The notes: generated by a model from the sequence alone, not told the origin. 32,000 nt of DNA from Promethearchaeota archaeon (GCA_048939465.1 JBHLPL010000003.1:1-32000), one strand, 5' to 3'. Positions 4,033 to 22,561 are shown, counted from the first letter of the stretch. Program-made: numbers and translations.

Positions 4033-4128
4033 TGGGCCCGCCGGGCTTCGATCCCGGGACCTTACCCGAAGTGTTCTCACTTTCTCGGTTATCAGCCGAG
4101 CGCTCTAACCAGGCTGAGCCACGGGCCC
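4033..4128 (-). tRNA. tRNA-Ile(GAT) with a ~21-nt intron in the variable region (best fit 43/44, 4063-4083)
   Basis: Acceptor GGGCCCG/CGGGCCC, D-stem GCTC/GAGC, anticodon arm CTCGG-CTGATAA-CCGAG, T-arm CCGGG-ATCGAAG-CCCGG. Removing AAAGTGAGAACACTTCGGGTA restores the variable region AGGTC. The BHB-like fold is relaxed and CCA is not encoded. Confidence 0.9.
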
Positions 4129-4195: not shown

Positions 4196-4298
4196 TGGTG
4201 GACCGGAGGGGATTTGAACCCCTGGCTTGCGGTCTCCTGCTAGTTGCAGTGACTCTCCGCCTTGCGAAGACGGCGATCTTCCACTGATCTACCGGCCC
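4196..4298 (-). tRNA. tRNA-Ala(CGC) with a 28-nt intron at 45/46 (4227-4254)
   Basis: Acceptor GGGCCGG/CCGGTCC with G3:U70, anticodon arm CCGTC-TTCGCAA-GGCGG, T-loop TTCAAAT, encoded CCA. A GCGG/CCGC central helix with two 3-nt bulges gives the mature variable region AGGCC. Confidence 0.93.
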
Positions 4299-8688: not shown

Positions 8689-9051
8689 TTGGTAGAATTT
8701 GAGTATAAGCAGGTTATTGTGGTACGTGCGGATTTGAAAATGTCTATCGGAAAAACCTCTGTTCAAGTAGCCCATGCTTCCGTTACCGCAGCTGAAGATG
8801 CAAGGAAAAACCGACGCAAATGGTGGAAAACTTGGATTTCTGAGGGGCAGAGAAAAATAGCTGTCAAAGTAGATTCTTTGGAGGAATTACTCGCTTTGGA
8901 GGACAAAGCCAAGGCATTAACCATACCACATGCCCTCATCACCGACAAAGGACTCACTGAGGTTCCTCCAGGCACTACGACCGCTTTAGGTATAGGCCCT
9001 GCCCCAAATGACATAATGGACAGGGTCACAGGAGGACTTCCTCTAATGTGA
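8689..9051 (+). CDS. pth2: Peptidyl-tRNA hydrolase, archaeal/Pth2 type
   Basis: YKQVIVVRADLKMSIGK...QVAHAS, GQRKIAVKV, ITDKGLTEVPPGTTTALGIGP; TTG start. Confidence 0.95.
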   Translation: MVEFEYKQVIVVRADLKMSIGKTSVQVAHASVTAAEDARKNRRKWWKTWISEGQRKIAVKVDSLEELLALEDKAKALTIPHALITDKGLTEVPPGTTTALGIGPAPNDIMDRVTGGLPLM

Positions 9052-9309
9052 ACTACTTCCAGCTTTCACAAGGGGTTTCCTCCCTCTCTCTGCCTCACGC
9101 GTCTGAGGACACTTCGGCTTCCCAGAGGGGGTTTCTGTGCCCCGAATTGACGGATACACAGGAGGAGGGGCTCGAGTTGGTTCACTCTTTAACGTGCCAC
9201 AGACACTCGGCGGCCTTGCCAAGCAGAATATACCTGCAAGGTCTGCGCTCTCAGACTGGGTTTCACGCCCATGCCGTTAGGCAAGCTTCCTCTTACGAGC
9301 ATCTTACCC
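9048..9309 (-). ncRNA. Unidentified structured ncRNA-like element, copy 1 (omega-RNA-like candidate)
   Basis: Many hairpins with GNRA loops and G:U pairs that work only on the minus strand. TATA-like box 21 nt upstream. Collinear homology to 14661-14873, with 31/39 nt identical at the 3' end. Confidence 0.7.
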
Positions 9310-9330
9310 AAAGCTTAACTTCCAAGAAAT

Positions 9331-9338
9331 CATTTAAA
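9331..9338 (-). promoter_or_regulatory. TATA-box candidate (TTTAAATG) for the copy-1 RNA
   Basis: Lies 21 nt before the start of the structured region, the same spacing as in copy 2. Confidence 0.5.
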
Positions 9339-9422
9339 CGCAACGCATCTCATTCACACGCTCTCGGACGGGGTCTCCTTGTGGAAAAAAGATAACAACG
9401 GGGTTGGGTTGGAGCTACTCAA

Positions 9423-10778
9423 ATGAGAATTTCCAAAATCGAAAAGCAGATGGGAATCGAGAAATACGGTAGCGGCACTCCAGGCATTGAAGGAAGGATC
9501 AAACAATTACTGGAAGACTTTATTGTCGAGGAAATTACACCCGAAGGAGAGATTCTATATTCGCGCAGGAGAGAGTCAATCGAGGAGAAGAAAATAGAGA
9601 GTAGCGGACCGTACACTTGGTTCACTCTTGAAAAGCATGGTTGGGATACTTTCAGTGTACTAAGACATTTGGCAAAAGTGCTCCATGTCGATTTAGAGCG
9701 CTTCTCCTTTGCTGGGATGAAAGATAAGAGGGGGATAACTGTACAACGCGCTAGTTGCTGGAAAGTCGCACCCGCTGAATTAGACAAAGTCTCCTTGAAA
9801 GATGTTTATCTTCGTGACTTCATTCGTTCAAAGAAATCAATTAAGCTAGGAGATTTGTGGGGTAATCACTTCACAATAAATGTACGAGACATGGAAGCAA
9901 ATATCGATTCATATTCTATTATGACAGAAACATGGAATGAATTGAAGGCTCATGATGTACCAAACTTCTTTGGTCATCAAAGATTTGGAACGCATAGGCC
10001 AATCACACATCTGGTCGGAAAGAATATATTAAAAGGTGATTTTAAGAACTCAGTCATCACATTTCTTACTGGAAATTCAATTCATGAAAAGGCCAATGTC
10101 AACAAAGCTCGACGCCAGCTAAATGAGACCCGCAACTTCAGCGAGGCCATCGAAGCTTTTCCAAAAAGCCTATGGTTTGAACAAACGGTGCTTCGCATTC
10201 TAGTGAAGAATGCAGAAGATTACATCGGTGCGCTCAGAGCACTCCCAAAGCGCTTCAGAATGATGTTTGTCCATGCATACCAAGCATATTTATTCAATAG
10301 ATTCTTGAGTGAACGAATCAGAAGAAATATTCCCCTAAATCGTGCAGTCAAAGGCGATATTGCGCGGATTATCAGCAAAGATTTTCCCCGCTATGTTAAG
10401 ATATCCGAAACGAATGAGCAAAAGATTGACGAAATGATAAGAATGGGGAAAGCATTTATCGTTCTTCCTCTAGTCGGATATTCTTCAAAACTTCCAGAGG
10501 GAGATATGGGAGAAATAGTCTCCAGAACACTAGGCGAGGAAGGAATCTCTCCCAAGGATTTCAGAGTTGAAAGAATGAGAGAACTGTCGTCATCAGGAGA
10601 ATTTCGCTCCGTTACTTTGCAGGTGAATAACATGAGATTCTCAGGACCGTCAAAAGACCGTATCGATCCGACAAAAACAGAAGTAGAATTCGATTTTTCT
10701 CTTCCAAAGGGTTGTTATGCAACTGTAGTCCTAAGAGAGTTCATGAAGTCAAAAGACATCATTGAAGCAGGATATTGA
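9423..10778 (+). CDS. truD: tRNA pseudouridine(13) synthase TruD
   Basis: IKQLLEDFIVEE, FAGMKDKRGITVQ (catalytic Asp), GDLWGNHF, PNFFGHQRFG, FSLPKGCYATVVLRE. Confidence 0.95.
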   Translation: MRISKIEKQMGIEKYGSGTPGIEGRIKQLLEDFIVEEITPEGEILYSRRRESIEEKKIESSGPYTWFTLEKHGWDTFSVLRHLAKVLHVDLERFSFAGMKDKRGITVQRASCWKVAPAELDKVSLKDVYLRDFIRSKKSIKLGDLWGNHFTINVRDMEANIDSYSIMTETWNELKAHDVPNFFGHQRFGTHRPITHLVGKNILKGDFKNSVITFLTGNSIHEKANVNKARRQLNETRNFSEAIEAFPKSLWFEQTVLRILVKNAEDYIGALRALPKRFRMMFVHAYQAYLFNRFLSERIRRNIPLNRAVKGDIARIISKDFPRYVKISETNEQKIDEMIRMGKAFIVLPLVGYSSKLPEGDMGEIVSRTLGEEGISPKDFRVERMRELSSSGEFRSVTLQVNNMRFSGPSKDRIDPTKTEVEFDFSLPKGCYATVVLREFMKSKDIIEAGY

Positions 10779-10794
10779 TTATTGATGAATGTGA

Positions 10795-12120
10795 TTACGG
10801 AGTTAGTCTGTGTCTATCTCTCGGGAATAGAACTACCTCTCTGATATTCTCGGAACCTGTTAACACCATTAGAATCCTTGCAAGACCAATACCACAACCA
10901 GCGTGAGGAGGCATGCCCCAATCGAAGGCCTTGAGATGGAATTCAAAGGAAGATGGATTTAGTCCCTTTTCCTCCAGACGTTTGATCAAAAGGGATTTAT
11001 CATGAACCCGCGTACCTCCAGATGCCAATTCCAGCCAACCGTACATCAGATCGAAACCATCAGATAGTTGAGGGTTATCTTTCTTGGGAGAAATGTAGAA
11101 CGGTTTCCCAGCAATAGGCCAATCAACAATGAAGTAAGGTCCTGGGAAGAGTTTCCCGAGGGTTCTTATAGCCTGTGTGTGTAAATCCTCCCCCCAAGGA
11201 ATCTTGATTCCCTTTTTGCTCAATACTCCTAAGATTTCATCGTAAGTATACCTTGGAAATGGAGTGGAAGGCGGGCTAATCTTACTTCTCACTGTTTTTA
11301 GCTCGCTCTTATAGTTCTTCATGGTCTCTCTCAGCACATAAGCGATGAGTTCCTCCGAAACCTTCATTATATCATCAGCAGTTGCGAAAGCTTGCTCAAT
11401 ATCTATCATTATTAATTCAGCCAAGTGTCTTGTGGTGCTAGATTCTTCTGCTCTAAATACGGGGGCTATCTCAAAGACTTTTTCAAATACTGAAGTTAGA
11501 ACTTCCTTGTATAGCTGTGGGCTTTGAGCCAGGAATGCTTCATCTTCAAAATACGCTATAGGAAAGAGTTCTGTCCCCCCTTCGGTAGCAGAAGAGATTA
11601 TTTTTGGCGTATGAATTTCCAAGAACCCTTGGTCAGTCAGAAACTCTCTTGTATACCTCGAAACGCCATCACGTAGCCTGAAAATAGCATAGGGGCGCGG
11701 GCGTCTCAAGTCGAGAATTCTCGCATTAAGCCTGGTATCCAGCTCAGCCTCCACTCTTCCTGTAAGTTCGAGTGGGAGTGGACTTACGGCAATATTCAGC
11801 AATTTTAATTGATCGGGTACTATTTCGGCACCACCAGGCGCTTTATCCATTTTTTTAACTATGCCTTTTATGGCGATTACGTCTTCTTTTCCAATGGACT
11901 TTGCTTTTTCGAATAAGGCTTCGTTTTTCTCAGGAACTGTTATTTGAACGCGACCGTGACTATCCCGTAGTATAATGAATTTTATGCCTCCTAGGTCGCG
12001 AATCCTATCGACCCATCCGAAGACAACAACTTCTTTACCGGCTAAGGCAGGCCCTATTTGAGTCGAATAATGAGTACGCCGCCACTCACCCAAGCTCTCA
12101 ATCTTCTTGCGTCGAACCAA
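10795..12120 (-). CDS. aspS: Aspartyl-tRNA synthetase, archaeal, probably non-discriminating (Asp/Asn)
   Basis: GWVDRIRDLGG, AQSPQLYKE, FRAEES.TTRHL.E, GMPPHAGCGIG. The anticodon-binding loop KAPGG has Pro, as in non-discriminating enzymes. TTG start. Confidence 0.93.
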   Translation of the reverse strand: MVRRKKIESLGEWRRTHYSTQIGPALAGKEVVVFGWVDRIRDLGGIKFIILRDSHGRVQITVPEKNEALFEKAKSIGKEDVIAIKGIVKKMDKAPGGAEIVPDQLKLLNIAVSPLPLELTGRVEAELDTRLNARILDLRRPRPYAIFRLRDGVSRYTREFLTDQGFLEIHTPKIISSATEGGTELFPIAYFEDEAFLAQSPQLYKEVLTSVFEKVFEIAPVFRAEESSTTRHLAELIMIDIEQAFATADDIMKVSEELIAYVLRETMKNYKSELKTVRSKISPPSTPFPRYTYDEILGVLSKKGIKIPWGEDLHTQAIRTLGKLFPGPYFIVDWPIAGKPFYISPKKDNPQLSDGFDLMYGWLELASGGTRVHDKSLLIKRLEEKGLNPSSFEFHLKAFDWGMPPHAGCGIGLARILMVLTGSENIREVVLFPRDRHRLTP

Positions 12121-12193
12121 CTCTGGACCTCCTATTCAGGATCTGAGCCATCTCAAGAGGACATGTTATGATTTGGAGGGGGATGTCTGCTAA

Positions 12194-12703
12194 TCACTCA
12201 AATACTATTCTGACTTTTTGTTCAGTTAAATGTAGAATTGCTTCTTCTAGGGTCTTGATATCCAGCGAGAGCCGTTGTGATCTAGCCCTCTTCACTCTAA
12301 TTTTCCTTTCAGTTTCTCCTGTCGGAAGAAAAACCTTGTTTACACCCATGATTTGAAAGGGAGCGAGAATGTCCTGAATGATTTTCTTGGTTGAAGATGC
12401 AGTTTCAATAACACGAATTCTTCTGTTAAACTTCCCTTCCAAATGCCTAACGATTTTACCCTTGGGACCGATGACTTTTGGGATATCACCACGATTGACC
12501 ATCAATATGGCCAGCCCATTTGTGTGCACGATACGGTTTAAAGTAACAGTTTTAAGCGCAACAAACTGTTTCTCTAATTCAAGTAACTCCTTTGCTATTT
12601 GGACATCTAACTCCGAAATCTCCCCTTTATCCAGTTTCTCTTGACAACTCGGACATAGCAATCCTGTTTGCAGGCAAAACTTGCACACTGGTGTTTTTAC
12701 CAT
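12194..12703 (-). CDS. Archaeal NusA-like KH-domain protein with an N-terminal Zn finger
   Basis: MVKTPVCKFCLQTGLLCPSCQEK and the KH GxxG motif VIGPKGKIVR. This paralog family commonly sits upstream of aspS. Start reassigned to ATG 12703. Confidence 0.8.
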   Translation of the reverse strand: MVKTPVCKFCLQTGLLCPSCQEKLDKGEISELDVQIAKELLELEKQFVALKTVTLNRIVHTNGLAILMVNRGDIPKVIGPKGKIVRHLEGKFNRRIRVIETASSTKKIIQDILAPFQIMGVNKVFLPTGETERKIRVKRARSQRLSLDIKTLEEAILHLTEQKVRIVFE

Positions 12704-13048
12704 GTTTTTCCCTCGACTATTTCCACAAGAAAGATCTTTCAATTCTTATTAAATCAGTCACTAATTTTGGTGATAGAACTTTTGGACTTGTTACCCCTTC
12801 AACGTGAGAATGAATAAAAACCTTTGGTTATTGCAAAAGGAGGAATGAAGCAACTCTCCAAGAACCTGAAGTGATTTCCATAACACCGTGTCCAAAAGTA
12901 TTCCAGTCATTTGCCTTTCCAGTCCCGTAAACCTCTCGGATACAAATAGAAGATTTATAGTTATTCCAGAATCGCGCAGTATCAGATTAGTAGCCAAAAG
13001 ACAAAAGTTAAATACCAATATCTCACCGTAAAGGAGGAGGAGAGCATA

Positions 13049-13210
13049 ATGCCGGTAGACGATCCCGATAAGAAACTAATTGCAATGAGAAATCTAATCT
13101 ACTTCAAAATATGCAGAAAATGTGGTGCCCGAAATGCACTCTCGGCCAAGAGATGTAGACGTTGCAGAAGCAGAAACCTAAGATTTAAGAAGAGAGAGAT
13201 AGGGAAGTGA
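13049..13210 (+). CDS. rpl40e: 50S ribosomal protein L40e (53 aa; not in the ORF track)
   Basis: Manual translation: MPVDDPDKKLIAMRNLIYFKICRKCGARNALSAKRCRRCRSRNLRFKKREIGK*; GGAGG upstream. Confidence 0.95.
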   Translation: MPVDDPDKKLIAMRNLIYFKICRKCGARNALSAKRCRRCRSRNLRFKKREIGK

Positions 13211-13257
13211 GTAGTCTTTTCATAAAAGCTTCAATCCTGATCATATAGATTAACACA

Positions 13258-13379
13258 GGGCGGGTGGTCTAGCGGTCTATGACGCCGCCCTCAGTTTGTC
13301 AGATATCCTGCAAGCGGGTAAACACGGCGGAAACCTAAAAGGCCGAAAATCGCGAGTTCAAATCTCGCCCCGCCCACCA
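13258..13379 (+). tRNA. tRNA-Val(CAC) with two introns: 34/35 (13293-13321, 29 nt) and 45/46 (13333-13348, 16 nt)
   Basis: Acceptor GGGCGGG/CCCGCCC-A-CCA, D-arm GTC/GAC, anticodon stem CCGCC/GGCGG, T-arm GCGAG-TTCAAAT-CTCGC. BHB geometry (GCCC/GGGT helix, bulges TC|A and AA|A) gives the loop CT-CAC-AC. The second intron leaves the variable region AAATC. Confidence 0.88.
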
Positions 13380-13529
13380 AGGGATTTAGCCCCAACTTGT
13401 CCCACAAGAAGTCAGAATCTCAAGCGGAAGTCCAATAAGAACATTTTTAAAACGAAATGATGTTTTGGAATTATTTAATAGAAGTAGGAATAGCTATGGA
13501 TAGTTATTGTTAACGGCACGGAGGTGTAA

Positions 13530-13727
13530 ATGTTGCCTGCAGCAATCAAAGATCCAAACGAGTTCATAGAGATTTCAAAAAGAGCCACAGAGTGCCGTGT
13601 AAAACGGCTAAAGGATACAGTAAAGATAAAGCTACGAACAAAGAGAATGCTATATACCCTAAAGACTGATCCTGAAACCGCAGACAGCGTTCTCGACAAG
13701 ATCGAATGCGCTATTGTCGAGGTCTAA
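13530..13727 (+). CDS. rpl38e: 50S ribosomal protein L38e
   Basis: P..IKD..EFIEISKRA.ECRVKR...VKIKLRTKR.LYTLK matches eL38. The start may be TTG 13533, given GGAGGTG spacing. Confidence 0.88.
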   Translation: MLPAAIKDPNEFIEISKRATECRVKRLKDTVKIKLRTKRMLYTLKTDPETADSVLDKIECAIVEV

Positions 13728-13734
13728 AAAGCCT

Positions 13735-14607
13735 CTAGAATATCAATCTTAAGATCAACGGTATAATCCCTAATCCTACGGCAATAGGCAATCCCGGAAG
13801 CATCTCTTTTTTAGTCAGGAGCCACAGGGTTATGCCCGAACCTACTAAGATACCTATAGAAACAAATCCCCAGGTTATTATGTCGAATATCGCGAGAGCG
13901 TGAGACGAAAGCAGAGAATAGAATGCAAGATCTCCGAGACCGATTTCCCAATCACGCGTTGAAAAGGTCATTGACAGTTCAGAATTGCTCCTTTCTTCAG
14001 AGAGCTTTACTATCTCTTTTATTGGACCCTTTTTAACAGCGAAAATGTCATATGCCGATATGAAGAGAAGGAGTAGAATCACGCTCCATGTTGGTATCGT
14101 CAGAGCAAGAAAAGATCCAATAAGGGCACCATAGAGTATTAAAACAACATTCTTTAGGTTTGCTGGAACATCTTTAGCCGATATCCCGTAAGCAGAAGAA
14201 GCTCCCGAAATCCCTCCGATGCACAACGAGCTAATCTCTACTATCGTTGCATTTACTCCCGTTAGATTTAGGTAGGAGATTATGCTCCAACCATAAAAAA
14301 GACACATGAAAAACCAGGAAAACCAAATGGCTATACCGAGAAATACCTTTAGAAAAATGTCCTTCTTATACTTGAGGAGCAAGTATATTGAAACACCGCC
14401 GATAAGTGCTATTAAAAGGAATAAAATGGCATTCATCATTGCCGCGCTAAATCCACCTTCTTCTTCGGAGAAGGGGACAGCAGTTATATTCAATTGGCCC
14501 AAGAAACCTATAAAAGTCAATAGAGCAGAAATGCAAATAACAACGATTATTGGTGTTAAGAATGCCAATTTGCTCACTTTAGGTGGAGTAGGGGGCCTGT
14601 CATTCAA
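13735..14607 (-). CDS. Presenilin-like GxGD intramembrane aspartic protease (A22)
   Basis: About 8-9 hydrophobic segments, with SAYDIFAV (YD aspartate), IGLGDL (GxGD aspartate) and the PAL-equivalent LPGLP. Confidence 0.9.
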   Translation of the reverse strand: MNDRPPTPPKVSKLAFLTPIIVVICISALLTFIGFLGQLNITAVPFSEEEGGFSAAMMNAILFLLIALIGGVSIYLLLKYKKDIFLKVFLGIAIWFSWFFMCLFYGWSIISYLNLTGVNATIVEISSLCIGGISGASSAYGISAKDVPANLKNVVLILYGALIGSFLALTIPTWSVILLLLFISAYDIFAVKKGPIKEIVKLSEERSNSELSMTFSTRDWEIGLGDLAFYSLLSSHALAIFDIITWGFVSIGILVGSGITLWLLTKKEMLPGLPIAVGLGIIPLILRLIF

Positions 14608-14660
14608 AGTTCCTCACCAGTTCCAGGAAGCCATATCATATCTTTGACACTAATAGGAAG

Positions 14661-14873
14661 GTTAACTGCTCCCAGCTTTCGCGAGGGACATCCTCCCTCG
14701 AACTCTGAAAAGTTATTGAATCTGCTTTCGGAGTGTTCAACACTGAGGAGGTCTAGGGTTGGTTCACACCCATTGTTGGTGCCGCAGGCACGAGAGAGTC
14801 CTGCCCATCAGGACATACCCGAAGGGGCTGCTTCCTTTGCTTTCCCCTCCTCGCTTTCGAGGTCACAGATCTC
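14661..14873 (-). ncRNA. Unidentified structured ncRNA-like element, copy 2 (paralog of 9048-9309)
   Basis: Shares GTGYCTGYGGCAC, GTGAACCAAC, CCTCCTC/GAGGGAGG and CCCT-YGYGAAAGCTGG-RAGYAGTTMAC with copy 1, in the same order. Confidence 0.7.
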
Positions 14874-14894
14874 AATTTTGAGTATTTGAGAAAG

Positions 14895-14902
14895 TATTTA
14901 AG
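14895..14902 (-). promoter_or_regulatory. TATA-box candidate (CTTAAATA) for the copy-2 RNA
   Basis: 21 nt upstream of the structured region. The TTAAAT-nn-TTTCT context is shared with copy 1. Confidence 0.5.
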
Positions 14903-15031
14903 CCTAGCGCAATTCATCTCCGTTCCATCAGATGGAGTCCTCAATACGGAATAGTAGATAAAGCTCCCCACTACAAATATCGTCGACATTAAGCTGAGTC
15001 ATTAGTGGATTATTGTCGAGGTATACGCTCA

Positions 15032-15604
15032 ATGATAAAACTAGTTAGAATTGGAAATCCACAGAAAGCAGTCGTTAAGAAGATTAAATCAAGCTTGGCT
15101 GAGGCATTTACACCGTTGGAGTGCGAGATTCTGGAAGATACCTTGCCTGTTCCATTAGAAACATACAGTCCTAGCAGATCGCAATTCAATTCAACACCGA
15201 TACTTCGCTACTTATCTAGATACGTTAATAGAAGAAGAGATATGGTACTGGGCATCACAGAAATAGATCTCTTTGCTTCATCGCTGAATTTTATTTTCGG
15301 GCTGGCCAGTTATACTAGCAAAACATCTATCATCTCTCTACACAGACTAAGACCGGAGTTTTATTATCAGTCTTCGGACCCTGAATTGCTAGGAGAAAGA
15401 GCCATAAAAGAGGCGGTACATGAGCTGGGGCATGTACTAGGTGCAAACCATTGCCCTGACCCAAAATGCGTTATGCACTTCTCAAATGACATAACGATGA
15501 CGGATGAGAAAGAGCACAAGTTTTGCCCCCAATGTCGAACAATCATAGATCTAGCAATTGATTTAATGATAAGACCTCATAATGACTCATCAAAAGATAT
15601 TTAA
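15032..15604 (+). CDS. amzA: Archaemetzincin (M54 Zn metalloprotease)
   Basis: HELGHVLGANHC.DPKCVMHFSN (HExxHxxGxxH plus Met-turn and Cys4 site) and LNFIFGLA. Start reassigned to ATG 15032. Confidence 0.92.
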   Translation: MIKLVRIGNPQKAVVKKIKSSLAEAFTPLECEILEDTLPVPLETYSPSRSQFNSTPILRYLSRYVNRRRDMVLGITEIDLFASSLNFIFGLASYTSKTSIISLHRLRPEFYYQSSDPELLGERAIKEAVHELGHVLGANHCPDPKCVMHFSNDITMTDEKEHKFCPQCRTIIDLAIDLMIRPHNDSSKDI

Positions 15605-22448: not shown

Positions 22449-22561
22449 TGGTGCGAGGGGTGGGACTTGAACCCACGAAGGCATACGCAAGAGTGTTGTA
22501 CCACTTTTTCTACGCCAAAGGATCTTGAGTCCTTCCCCGTTGACCGCTTGGGTACCCTCGC
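22449..22561 (-). tRNA. tRNA-Leu(CAA) with a 27-nt intron in the variable-arm loop (22483-22509)
   Basis: Acceptor GCGAGGG/CCCTCGC-A-CCA, anticodon arm AAGGA-CTCAAGA-TCCTT, T-arm GTGGG-TTCAAGT-CCCAC. BHB-consistent cuts (AG|A, AT|G) restore the typical Leu arm TGGCGTAGGCCTTC. Confidence 0.92.

What the first reader, a model, noticed from the sequence alone, without database searches (positions are those of the whole stretch)
9048..14873. Two paralogous, independently promoted, structured ncRNA-like genes of an unrecognised family (9048-9309 and 14661-14873)
Seen in sequence: two intergenic minus-strand elements 5.3 kb apart share five collinear blocks. (A) Hairpin GUGYC-UGY-GGCAC (9194-9206, 14779-14791). 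(B) An identical GUGAACCAAC in a hairpin loop (9176-9185, 14758-14767). (C) CCUCCUC, able to pair long-range with GAGGGAGG. (D) CUCYG-(G)RAAGC...CAGAG. (E) A 39-nt 3' block with 31/39 identity (9048-9086 vs 14661-14699). Substitutions preserve pairing (GUGUC/GGCAC vs GUGCC/GGCAC; GU-GAAA-GC vs GC-GAAA-GC; AGCUG/UAGUU vs AGCUG/CAGUU), while peripheral hairpins differ in length. G:U pairs and GNRA loops work only on the minus strand. Each has a TTAAAT box exactly 21 nt upstream. Inference: this is purifying selection on RNA structure, so a functional RNA family. It does not fit the tRNA, RNase P, SRP, C/D or H/ACA patterns I know.
Basis: partly seen in the sequence, partly recalled or inferred. 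Interest (0 to 1): 0.85.

Follow-up and report, generated by a model that had tools for sequence, protein, structure and literature searches.

The report
Gene-less IS605 mini-transposons with guide-RNA scaffolds
The two "unknown RNA genes" are miniature, gene-less copies of an IS200/IS605 jumping gene that kept its ends, its promoter and the guide-RNA (omega RNA) scaffold of its lost TnpB nuclease: a real find, but a kind of element already described, here seen in an Asgard archaeon.

Summary
The two minus-strand elements are homologous, and all five blocks sit at the stated coordinates. They are two of about 25-30 dispersed copies in this 1.96-Mb Asgard genome, and each is longer than reported: 9048-9391 (344 nt) and 14661-14957 (297 nt).

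Two congeneric genomes carry precise empty sites. The elements sit 3' of TTAT/TTTAT, with no target duplication. At the orthologous site of element 2, one congener carries a full-length ~1.3-kb IS whose tnpB reads through the same sequence up to the same ...GTAGTTCAC end. The own genome holds a tnpA+tnpB IS605 (C105) and a tnpB-only IS (C2) with the same left end, TATA box and right-end terminus.

The blocks are therefore the 3' tail of tnpB, which is the omega-RNA scaffold, plus the right-end hairpin. The "TTAAAT box" is the tnpB promoter. These are PATE-type non-autonomous IS200/IS605 elements with omega-RNA modules.

Helices and a GUGAAC/GUUCAC pseudoknot are kept well above slid controls, with a few compensatory changes. 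No intact cognate TnpB was found in this assembly, and expression could not be tested. Other agents of this scan reached the same reading on other contigs of this genome.

Verdict: a new member of a known kind, of low to moderate interest.

The parts
9048..9391 (-). Element 1 (e1 type): complete gene-less IS200/IS605 (PATE-like) element, 344 nt
   Evidence: Both congeners have a precise empty site (G001:C24 and G002:C94), where the flanks join as ...CCATTAT|ATAAGAGG.... Conservation among 12 e1 copies drops from about 0.8 to about 0.4 exactly at both ends.
9392..9395 (-). Target / transposon-adjacent motif TTAT abutting the left end (family consensus TTTAT)
   Evidence: Empty-site comparison and left junctions of 27 family members.
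9354..9373 (-). Left-end subterminal imperfect hairpin (CCCCGTCC-GAGA-GCGTGTGA; family consensus CTCCATCC-GAGA-GGGTGGAG)
   Evidence: Conserved in all copies. The same hairpin is present in the left ends of the tnpB IS on C2 and the tnpA+tnpB IS605 on C105.
9332..9338 (-). TATA box TTTAAAT, the retained tnpB promoter
   Evidence: The same box at the same place in the left end lies about 60 nt upstream of the tnpB ATG in the full-length IS on C2 and in G002:C94. That it acts as a promoter is inferred from its position and consensus.
9048..9309 (-). Predicted transcript body, an omega-RNA (reRNA)-type scaffold of e1 type. It includes the GUGAAC loop (9180-9185), CCUCCU/GGGAGG helix and terminal GUUCAC (9048-9053).
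   Evidence: Alignment and helix counts. A profile built only from tnpB 3' ends of other genomes hits 9048-9091 (E = 9.5e-7) and longer stretches of sister e1 copies. Expression was not tested.
9056..9075 (-). Right-end subterminal hairpin (CCCCUUGU-GAAA-GCUGGAAG), followed by the UAGUUCAC terminus
   Evidence: The same terminus GGAGTAGTTCAC ends the IS on C105 and C2 and the tnpB elements of five other Asgard families.
9028..9047 (-). Flanking DNA that would be read as the guide of the omega-RNA. It is antisense to the last codons of pth2.
   Evidence: It lies directly 3' of the right-end boundary fixed by the empty sites. Guide function is inferred from the known TnpB mechanism.
14661..14957 (-). 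Element 2 (e2 type): gene-less derivative with an internal tnpB deletion, 297 nt
   Evidence: G001:C24 has the empty site ...CTTTAT|TTTTCAGTC.... G002:C94 has a ~1.3-kb full-length IS with tnpB at the same junctions.
14958..14962 (-). Target / TAM TTTAT abutting the left end
   Evidence: (empty site in G001, occupied site in G002).
14896..14902 (-). TATA-like box CTTAAAT (tnpB promoter remnant)
14661..14873 (-). Predicted transcript body: the first codons of tnpB fused to the tnpB tail / omega-RNA scaffold. It includes GUGAAC (14762-14767), the right-end hairpin (14669-14688) and terminal GUUAAC (14661-14666).
   Evidence: The profile from tnpB 3' ends of other genomes hits 14662-14838 with E = 1.7e-23.
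14641..14660 (-). Flanking DNA that would serve as the guide. It lies in the 5' region of the presenilin-homolog gene.
   Evidence: Right-end boundary. Guide function is inferred.

Best explanation
Both elements are non-autonomous, gene-less derivatives (PATE-type) of an IS200/IS605-family, IS1341-like insertion sequence that once carried tnpB.

Each keeps four things:
1. The left end with its subterminal hairpin.
2. The tnpB promoter (TATA box).
3. The stretch that in full-length relatives is the 3' tail of tnpB and doubles as the omega-RNA (reRNA) scaffold.
4. The right-end hairpin and the ...GTAGTTCAC terminus.

Shown here:
- They are insertions 3' of TT(T)AT without target duplication.
- They are absent from the same sites in sister species.
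- They share ends with a tnpA+tnpB IS605 and a tnpB-only IS of the same genome.
- They are homologous to tnpB 3' ends.

Inferred:
- The single Y1 transposase TnpA, encoded on contig C105, moves them in trans as single-stranded circles by way of the two hairpins.
- The retained promoter transcribes a ~210-260-nt scaffold that runs past the right end, so the flanking 16-20 nt act as the guide.
- With a TnpB supplied in trans, this RNA would direct cutting of the re-joined empty site (TAM TTTAT plus the guide match) after excision, so that recombination restores the element.

Whether these two copies still work as guides or are decaying relics is open. I put that at roughly even odds.
For: Copy number: about 25-30 dispersed copies at 66-82% identity.

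Boundaries and empty sites:
- Conservation has sharp boundaries at both ends.
- Both congeners have precise empty sites for element 1, and G001 has one for element 2. The insertions are 3' of TTAT/TTTAT and there is no duplication.
- Left junctions of 27 family members are mostly TTTAT|C.

Full-length relatives:
- At the orthologous site of element 2, G002:C94 carries a full-length IS.
- An intact 417-aa TnpB with this tail exists in G001 (Pfam PF07282, E = 2.9e-19).
- Copy C69:36781 still carries the RuvC-III remnant GLEHNHDLNGAINIGRR.
- In the own genome, C2 has LE + TATA + a 383-aa TnpB + RE ending GTTCAC.
- C105 has TnpA (Y1_Tnp, E = 4.9e-37) plus TnpB with the same LE hairpin and the RE terminus GGAGTAGTTCAC.

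Profile test: a profile built only from tnpB 3' ends of other genomes hits element 2 at E = 1.7e-23 and element 1 at E = 9.5e-7.

RNA structure:
- Helices and the GUGAAC/GUUCAC pseudoknot are paired in 76-90% of cells, against 2-75% in the slid controls; the separation is clear for H3 and the pseudoknot and weak for H4 and the right-end hairpin.
- A few double compensations occur (GGGCUG/CAGCCC to GGGCGU/ACGCCC; GCGAAC/GUUCGC).
- Stem positions change less than loop positions (0.16 vs 0.22), and 65% of single stem changes keep pairing in e1.

Published precedent: gene-less IS200/IS605 elements that often encode omega-RNAs (PMC10055086) and archaeal PATEs formed by core deletion (PMC3119063).
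Against: - No intact TnpB of the cognate (e2-type) clade was found in this 91%-complete assembly, only remnants. The three TnpB genes that are present share only about the last 35 nt of the scaffold.
- Helix H3 is only 3/6 paired in both window copies. Element 2 ends in GUUAAC rather than GUUCAC. Element 1's right-end hairpin has two extra C.A mismatches.
- Conservation is nearly uniform along the element, at 0.75-0.93. Pair retention of 71-85% is close to what neutral decay from a structured ancestor would leave.
- Copies share ancestry, so the covariation counts are not independent.
Confidence: 0.9

Rival explanations
1. They are dead relics. The elements are IS200/IS605 deletion derivatives, as above, but the RNA scaffold no longer has any function. 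The shared blocks are then inherited sequence that has not yet decayed, and the conserved ends persist only because TnpA needs them.
For: No intact cognate TnpB is in the assembly. H3 is 3/6 in both window copies, element 2 has a mutated terminus, and it is only 66-69% identical to any relative. Conservation is nearly uniform along e1, and pair retention is about what neutral decay would give. No guide has a second TAM-adjacent target.
Against: The internal blocks (GGGAGG helix, TSS region) are the best-conserved parts, better than the TnpA-recognised hairpins. Stem positions change less than loops, and 65% of single stem changes keep pairing against a rough expectation of about one third. The TATA box is kept in most copies. 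The assembly is fragmented at these repeats, so a cognate tnpB may be unassembled.
Confidence: 0.4
2. They are a free-standing, non-mobile cellular ncRNA gene family of an unrecognised class.
For: No Rfam family matches. The elements are structured, GC-rich relative to the contig (53% and 50% against 43%), and have their own TATA box.
Against: Sister species have precise empty sites. The ends are typical of IS200/IS605, and the target motif carries no duplication. The sequence is homologous to tnpB coding tails and to full-length IS copies.
Confidence: 0.02
3. They are exapted guide-RNA or regulatory cassettes. The promoter-plus-scaffold units would be kept by the host as trans-acting guides for a (possibly nuclease-dead) TnpB-like regulator, or as cis regulators of neighbouring genes.
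For: Gene-less cassettes outnumber TnpB genes by roughly 25 to 3-4. Each keeps a promoter. Element 1's read-through would be antisense to the pth2 3' end, and element 2 faces the presenilin-homolog gene 53 nt upstream of its start.
Against: No guide matches a second site next to TTTAT anywhere in the genome. The insertions differ between sister species and are not conserved loci. No TnpB-like gene is linked to them.
Confidence: 0.05
4. They are small protein genes. Long open frames run on the plus (antisense) strand: 115 aa over element 1 and 81 aa over element 2.
For: the ORF listing shows 9048-9395 (+) at 115 aa and 14644-14889 (+) at 81 aa. Several e1 copies are open for 90-118 codons on the antisense strand.
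Against: The open frame differs between copies (phase 0, 1 or 2 from the fixed right end) and is broken in others. Substitutions show no three-base periodicity (0.171, 0.179, 0.180). There is no Pfam match above noise.
Confidence: 0.01

Closest known systems
PATEs (palindrome-associated transposable elements) / gene-less IS200/IS605 elements, e.g. Haloquadratum walsbyi PATEs (PMC3119063) and the PATE-like ISGst elements of Geobacillus stearothermophilus that often encode omega-RNAs (PMC10055086)
   Same: No terminal inverted repeats and subterminal palindromes at both ends. No target duplication, with insertion next to a short target motif. Too short to encode a transposase. The ends are shared with tnpA/tnpB-bearing IS605-type elements in the same genome. 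They derive from internal (core) deletion of tnpB and retain the omega-RNA-encoding right part.
   Different: The host is an Asgard archaeon. Two length classes occur, and the long e1 class carries about 45 nt of extra hairpins in the scaffold. I found no tnpB-linked counterpart of e1 in the genomes searched. The retained archaeal TATA promoter sits directly in front of the scaffold.
TnpB omega-RNA / reRNA of IS200/IS605 elements (ISDra2 and relatives; PMC8612924, PMC10097598)
   Same: The scaffold overlaps the tnpB 3' end and the right end, and stops exactly at the transposon boundary so that flanking DNA supplies the guide. The TAM equals the TnpA target motif at the left end. There is a multi-helix fold with a pseudoknot involving the 3' terminus.
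   Different: No sequence similarity to characterised omega-RNAs was tested or claimed. In the window copies the RNA stands alone, without tnpB. Binding, processing and cleavage are untested.
Haloarchaeal sotRNAs, i.e. IS1341-type omega-RNAs (Rfam RF02656/RF02657; PMC12558985)
   Same: Archaeal RNAs that overlap the 3' end of IS1341-type tnpB in the sense direction.
   Different: The Rfam models do not match these Asgard sequences, even at E<=10. This scaffold family is not represented in Rfam.
TldR-type exapted TnpB regulators with their guide RNAs
   Same: Only the idea that TnpB-type guide RNAs can be used away from transposition.
   Different: Here no guide has a second target, there is no linked TnpB-like gene, and the loci are polymorphic insertions. 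Nothing indicates exaptation.

Membership tests
IS200/IS605-family non-autonomous element (PATE type) | Subterminal imperfect palindromes at both ends and no terminal inverted repeats | tested here: met
   The left-end hairpin (consensus CTCCATCC-GAGA-GGGTGGAG) and right-end hairpin (CCCCUUGC-GAAA-GCUGGGAG, with a conserved U.U mismatch) are in all copies. In C2 and C105 the two hairpins are near-copies of each other.
IS200/IS605-family non-autonomous element (PATE type) | Insertion 3' of a short specific target motif, without target-site duplication | tested here: met
   Empty sites in G001 and G002 read CCATTAT|ATAAGAGG and CTTTAT|TTTTCAGTC. Most of 27 left junctions read TT(T)AT|C.
IS200/IS605-family non-autonomous element (PATE type) | Ends shared with a transposase-bearing IS of the family in the same genome | tested here: met
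   C105 carries TnpA (PF01797, E = 4.9e-37) plus TnpB. C2 carries TnpB (PF01385, PF07282, PF12323). Both have the same left-end sequence and the GTAGTTCAC terminus.
IS200/IS605-family non-autonomous element (PATE type) | No transposase or other conserved coding capacity | tested here: met
   The elements are 297 and 344 nt. Open frames are not conserved in phase, show no codon periodicity and have no Pfam match.
IS200/IS605-family non-autonomous element (PATE type) | Mobility: presence/absence polymorphism between related genomes and multiple dispersed copies | tested here: met
   Actual transposition by TnpA is not testable here.
TnpB omega-RNA (reRNA) scaffold | Encoded by the 3' end of tnpB plus the right end of the element | tested here: met
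   Full-length IS at the orthologous site in G002, tnpB tails in G001, G007 and G018, and a tnpB-only-derived profile that hits both window elements.
TnpB omega-RNA (reRNA) scaffold | Scaffold ends at the transposon boundary, and the adjacent flank serves as guide matching TAM-flanked donor-joint DNA | tested here: inconclusive
   The boundary and TAM geometry are met. The G001 empty site reads TTTAT plus the exact flank of the G002 element. Use of the flank as a guide cannot be tested with these tools.
TnpB omega-RNA (reRNA) scaffold | Conserved multi-helix fold, including a pseudoknot with the 3' terminus | tested here: inconclusive
   H3 is 79% paired, H4 90%, the RE hairpin 76% and the GUGAAC/GUUCAC pseudoknot 89%. 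H3 and the pseudoknot stand well above the slid controls, and a few double compensations occur. The copies are related, the structures were partly chosen on these sequences, and both window copies have a weakened H3.
TnpB omega-RNA (reRNA) scaffold | Transcribed and bound by a cognate TnpB present in the cell | tested here: not met
   No intact TnpB of the cognate clade is in this assembly (tblastn). Three other TnpB genes are present. The assembly is 91% complete and breaks at these repeats.
Rfam families (RNase P, SRP, sotRNA RF02656/RF02657, all 4227 models) | Match to a curated covariance model | tested here: not met
   Only tRNAs pass gathering scores in the window. Nothing relevant appears at E<=10 over 8800-15200.

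The most novel reading that the evidence does not exclude
The ~25 promoter-plus-scaffold cassettes could be more than transposon debris. They could be a maintained, stand-alone guide-RNA repertoire that one or a few trans-encoded TnpB proteins of this Asgard archaeon use, each cassette guarding its own locus. Alternatively, their read-through transcripts could regulate neighbouring genes: antisense to pth2 for element 1, and a sense leader for the presenilin homolog for element 2.
Probability: 0.07. Interest if true: 0.6.

Novelty: new member of a known kind. Interest (0 to 1): 0.25.

Why it matters
The result removes a false lead. What looked like a new family of structured RNA genes is a family of IS200/IS605 mini-transposons.

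It is still of modest use in three ways:
- It gives exact boundaries, the TAM (TTTAT), the promoter and a helix map for a TnpB omega-RNA family of Asgard archaea that Rfam does not cover.
- It shows that these repeats cause many of the contig breaks in the assembly.
- It documents insertions that rebuilt a gene's stop codon and that split a divergent promoter region.

For annotation pipelines, a covariance model of this scaffold would stop these ~25 loci, and those in several other Asgard families, from being called novel ncRNAs or spurious ORFs.

Tried and rejected
- **Rfam.** Gathering thresholds on the whole window, then E<=10 on 8800-15200, gave only tRNAs and noise. The RNase P, SRP and sotRNA readings were dropped.
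- **Single-sequence folding.** z-scores were only -1.7 and -0.8, which is not informative.
- **Antisense and sense small ORFs.** Rejected: no shared phase, no codon periodicity, no Pfam match.
- **Trans-targets of the guides.** For 25 elements, 16-nt guides with up to 2 mismatches found no second site next to a TTTAT.
- **A tnpB-linked e1-type scaffold.** An e1-specific 21-nt degenerate pattern was run against genome contigs and metagenome contigs. Each gave one chance hit, one on a Muribaculaceae contig and one inside an unrelated open frame of a metagenome contig. A BLAST of 40 relatives found e1 copies only in the same genus. The origin of the e1-specific hairpins stays open.
- **Cognate TnpB in the own genome.** tblastn found only remnants.
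- **Malformed calls.** One DNA alignment and two paper runs failed on syntax and were re-sent.
- **Not attempted.** A calibrated covariance model was not built, because of the model length. Pair counts were done with my own script instead of the count of structure pairs, to avoid typing long structure strings.

Full report
**1. Observation**

- The GUGYC-UGY-GGCAC hairpin lies at 9194-9206 and 14779-14791.
- The identical GUGAACCAAC lies at 9176-9185 and 14758-14767.
- CCUCCUC and GAGGGAGG are both present.
- The 3' block is 31/39 identical.
- A TATA-like box precedes each element.

Rfam gives nothing but tRNAs, at gathering thresholds and at E<=10. Single-sequence folding is not distinctive.

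**2. A repeat family, not a pair**

BLAST and an iterated nhmmer profile against the window's own genome (G000; 1.96 Mb, 152 contigs, 91% complete) find about 25-30 copies at 66-82% identity. They fall into two classes:
- A long class, "e1", with about 13 copies, which includes element 1.
- A short class, "e2", with about 10 copies, which includes element 2.

Aligning the copies with their flanks shows two things. Conservation extends about 80 nt upstream of the TATA box, through a hairpin with consensus CTCCATCC-GAGA-GGGTGGAG. It then falls to background exactly at ...TTTAT|C on the left and at ...GTAGTTCAC| on the right.

**3. They are insertions**

*Element 1.* Two genomes of the same genus carry the pth2-truD interval without it. 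Their sequence reads ...CCATTAT|ATAAGAGG... in minus-strand orientation. This makes the inserted unit 9048-9391 (344 nt), placed 3' of TTAT with no target duplication.

*Element 2.* G001 has the empty site ...CTTTAT|TTTTCAGTC.... G002 has, at the same junctions, a full-length element of about 1.3 kb. Element 2 is therefore 14661-14957 (297 nt).

**4. What the blocks are**

The G002 element begins with the same left end and TATA-like box.
- ...CGLEYNRDLNGAINIGNRLLGYMLKSRA... corresponds to the first helices.
- ...EVNQPQTSP... corresponds to GUGAACCAGCCCCAAACCUCCCC.
- ...EEAPCES corresponds to the right-end hairpin.

The ORF stops 13 nt before ...GTAGTTCAC.

Related elements support the same reading:
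- G001 has an intact 417-aa version, which matches Pfam Cas12f1-like_TNB at E = 2.9e-19.
- G007 and G018, in another Asgard family, have TnpB genes with the same tail. Further families have 394-401-aa TnpBs that share only the last ~35 nt.
- Within G000, copy C69:36781 still has the RuvC-III remnant GLEHNHDLNGAINIGRR directly in front of the scaffold.
- C151 keeps about 100 codons of the tnpB 5' end joined to the right end. Different copies therefore carry different internal deletions.

As a membership test, I built a profile only from tnpB 3' ends of other genomes. It hits element 2 over nearly its full length (E = 1.7e-23). It hits element 1 over the last 44 nt (E = 9.5e-7), and sister e1 copies over 115-145 profile positions.

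**5. Parents in the same genome**

*Contig C2* carries a tnpB-only IS. It has the TTTAT target, the same left-end sequence and hairpin, and TTTAAAT about 60 nt before the ATG. Its TnpB is 383 aa and matches PF12323, PF01385 and PF07282. Its right-end hairpin is a near copy of the left one, and it ends in GGGGCAGTTCAC.

*Contig C105* carries a complete IS605. It encodes TnpA (Y1_Tnp, E = 4.9e-37) and a 427-aa TnpB. Its left end starts TTTAC|CTTCCTCTCCGCAAGAAGACTCCATCC..., and its right end finishes GGAGTAGTTCAC. It carries the only Y1 transposase gene I came across in this genome (I did not search specifically for others), and is the obvious source of transposase in trans.

A third TnpB, split over the ends of contigs C55 and C70, has unrelated ends.

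No intact TnpB of the clade whose tail matches e1/e2 was found in G000.

**6. RNA structure**

I aligned 31 scaffolds: 13 e1 copies, 8 e2 copies, and 10 tnpB-linked or foreign sequences. The core helices are kept as follows:

| Helix | Cells paired | Slid controls |
|---|---|---|
| GGGCUG/CAGCCC (H3) | 79% | 23-50% |
| CCUCCC/GGGAGG (H4) | 90% | 54-75% (repetitive, so a weak test) |
| Right-end hairpin | 76% | 37-69% |
| Loop GUGAAC with terminal GUUCAC (pseudoknot) | 89% | 2-34% |

Clear double compensations exist but are few:
- H3 reads GGGCGU/ACGCCC in the short G007/G018 scaffolds.
- The pseudoknot reads GCGAAC/GUUCGC in C106.

Stem positions differ from the subfamily consensus less often than unpaired positions. 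The rates are 0.16 against 0.22 in e1, and 0.10 against 0.15 in the tnpB-linked set. In e1, 86 of 132 single stem changes keep pairing.

This fits constraint on an RNA fold, as known for omega-RNAs, but it is not proof:
- The copies share ancestry.
- The structures were partly derived from these sequences.
- Conservation along e1 is nearly uniform.
- Both window copies have H3 reduced to 3/6 pairs, element 2 ends in GUUAAC, and element 1's right-end hairpin has two extra mismatches.

**7. Alternatives checked**

*Small proteins.* The long open frames on the plus strand (115 and 81 aa) are not conserved in phase among copies. They show no codon periodicity (0.171, 0.179, 0.180) and no Pfam match.

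*Trans-acting guides.* None of 25 guides (16 nt, up to 2 mismatches) has a second genomic match preceded by TTTAT. Nothing therefore points to trans-targeting of the TldR type.

*Origin of e1.* Scans for an e1-specific motif in GTDB genomes and in metagenomes gave only chance hits.

**8. Comparison with what is known**

The elements meet every defining feature of PATEs as set out for Haloquadratum (PMC3119063):
- No inverted terminal repeats.
- Near-terminal palindromes.
- No target duplication.
- Too short for a transposase.
- Origin by core deletion of IS605-type transposons.

Meers et al. describe PATE-like elements in Geobacillus. They state that PATEs "often encode omega-RNAs" that must be used in trans by TnpB from other IS copies (PMC10055086). 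Archaeal IS1341 omega-RNAs (sotRNAs) are also established (PMC12558985), but their Rfam models do not match here.

The mechanism I propose follows that literature:
1. TnpA in trans carries out peel-and-paste transposition.
2. The retained tnpB promoter makes a scaffold-plus-flank RNA.
3. TnpB in trans cuts the TTTAT-flanked donor joint to restore the element.

This mechanism is inference for these copies.

**9. Earlier notes of this scan**

Notes on other contigs of the same genome (e1-5417504, e1-5417212, e1-5417067), and a second first-reader note on this window (e1-5417279), give the same reading. I reached it independently before consulting them, and I tested it on this window's own loci.

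**10. Verdict**

The find is a new member of a known kind, Asgard PATE-type IS200/IS605 elements with an omega-RNA scaffold that Rfam does not cover. Interest is about 0.25.

Noticed in passing
window 9046-9051 (+): The last sense codon and the stop codon of pth2 (PF01981, E = 1.1e-40) are supplied by the inserted element's right end. The empty-site genomes end ...LPLI* (CTT ATA TAA). The window ends ...LPLM*, with ATG TGA formed across and inside the GTGAAC terminus. The insertion split the final codon yet left the ORF essentially intact.
   Followed up: partly
window 14608-15004: Element 2 sits in the divergent intergenic region between the presenilin homolog (PF01080) and an archaemetzincin (PF07998). 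It was inserted at an A/T-rich TTTAT|TTTT site that may have been the presenilin gene's own TATA region. The element's promoter now faces that gene, 53 nt upstream of its start.
   Followed up: no
window 4033-4128, 4199-4298, 13258-13376, 22452-22561: Four tRNA genes carry long inserts (introns), some outside the canonical anticodon-loop position. Rfam finds all four and ARAGORN finds only one.
   Followed up: no
L061 (G002:C94) 1205-2494: The full-length IS at the site orthologous to element 2 has its tnpB split into 131-aa and 300-aa frames. This is either a frameshift pseudogene or a sequencing error. The TnpB ORF of this clade runs through about 190 nt of the omega-RNA scaffold, to 7-13 nt before the transposon end.
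   Followed up: partly
G000 contigs C151:~205-652, C125:2775-2953, C69:11694-11839: Further family members have different internal deletion end-points. C151 keeps about 100 codons of the tnpB 5' end. This indicates repeated, independent core deletions rather than one amplified mini-element.
   Followed up: partly
G000 contigs C55 (end) and C70 (start); G002 contigs C22, C18, C60 (ends): Several contigs of this and the sister assembly stop inside IS or omega-RNA repeats. C55 and C70 overlap within one tnpB. The family is thus a cause of assembly fragmentation, and copy numbers are lower bounds.
   Followed up: no
window 9048-9391 and 14661-14957: Both elements are GC-richer (53% and 50%) than the contig (43%), and the sense strand is slightly purine-rich.
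   Followed up: yes
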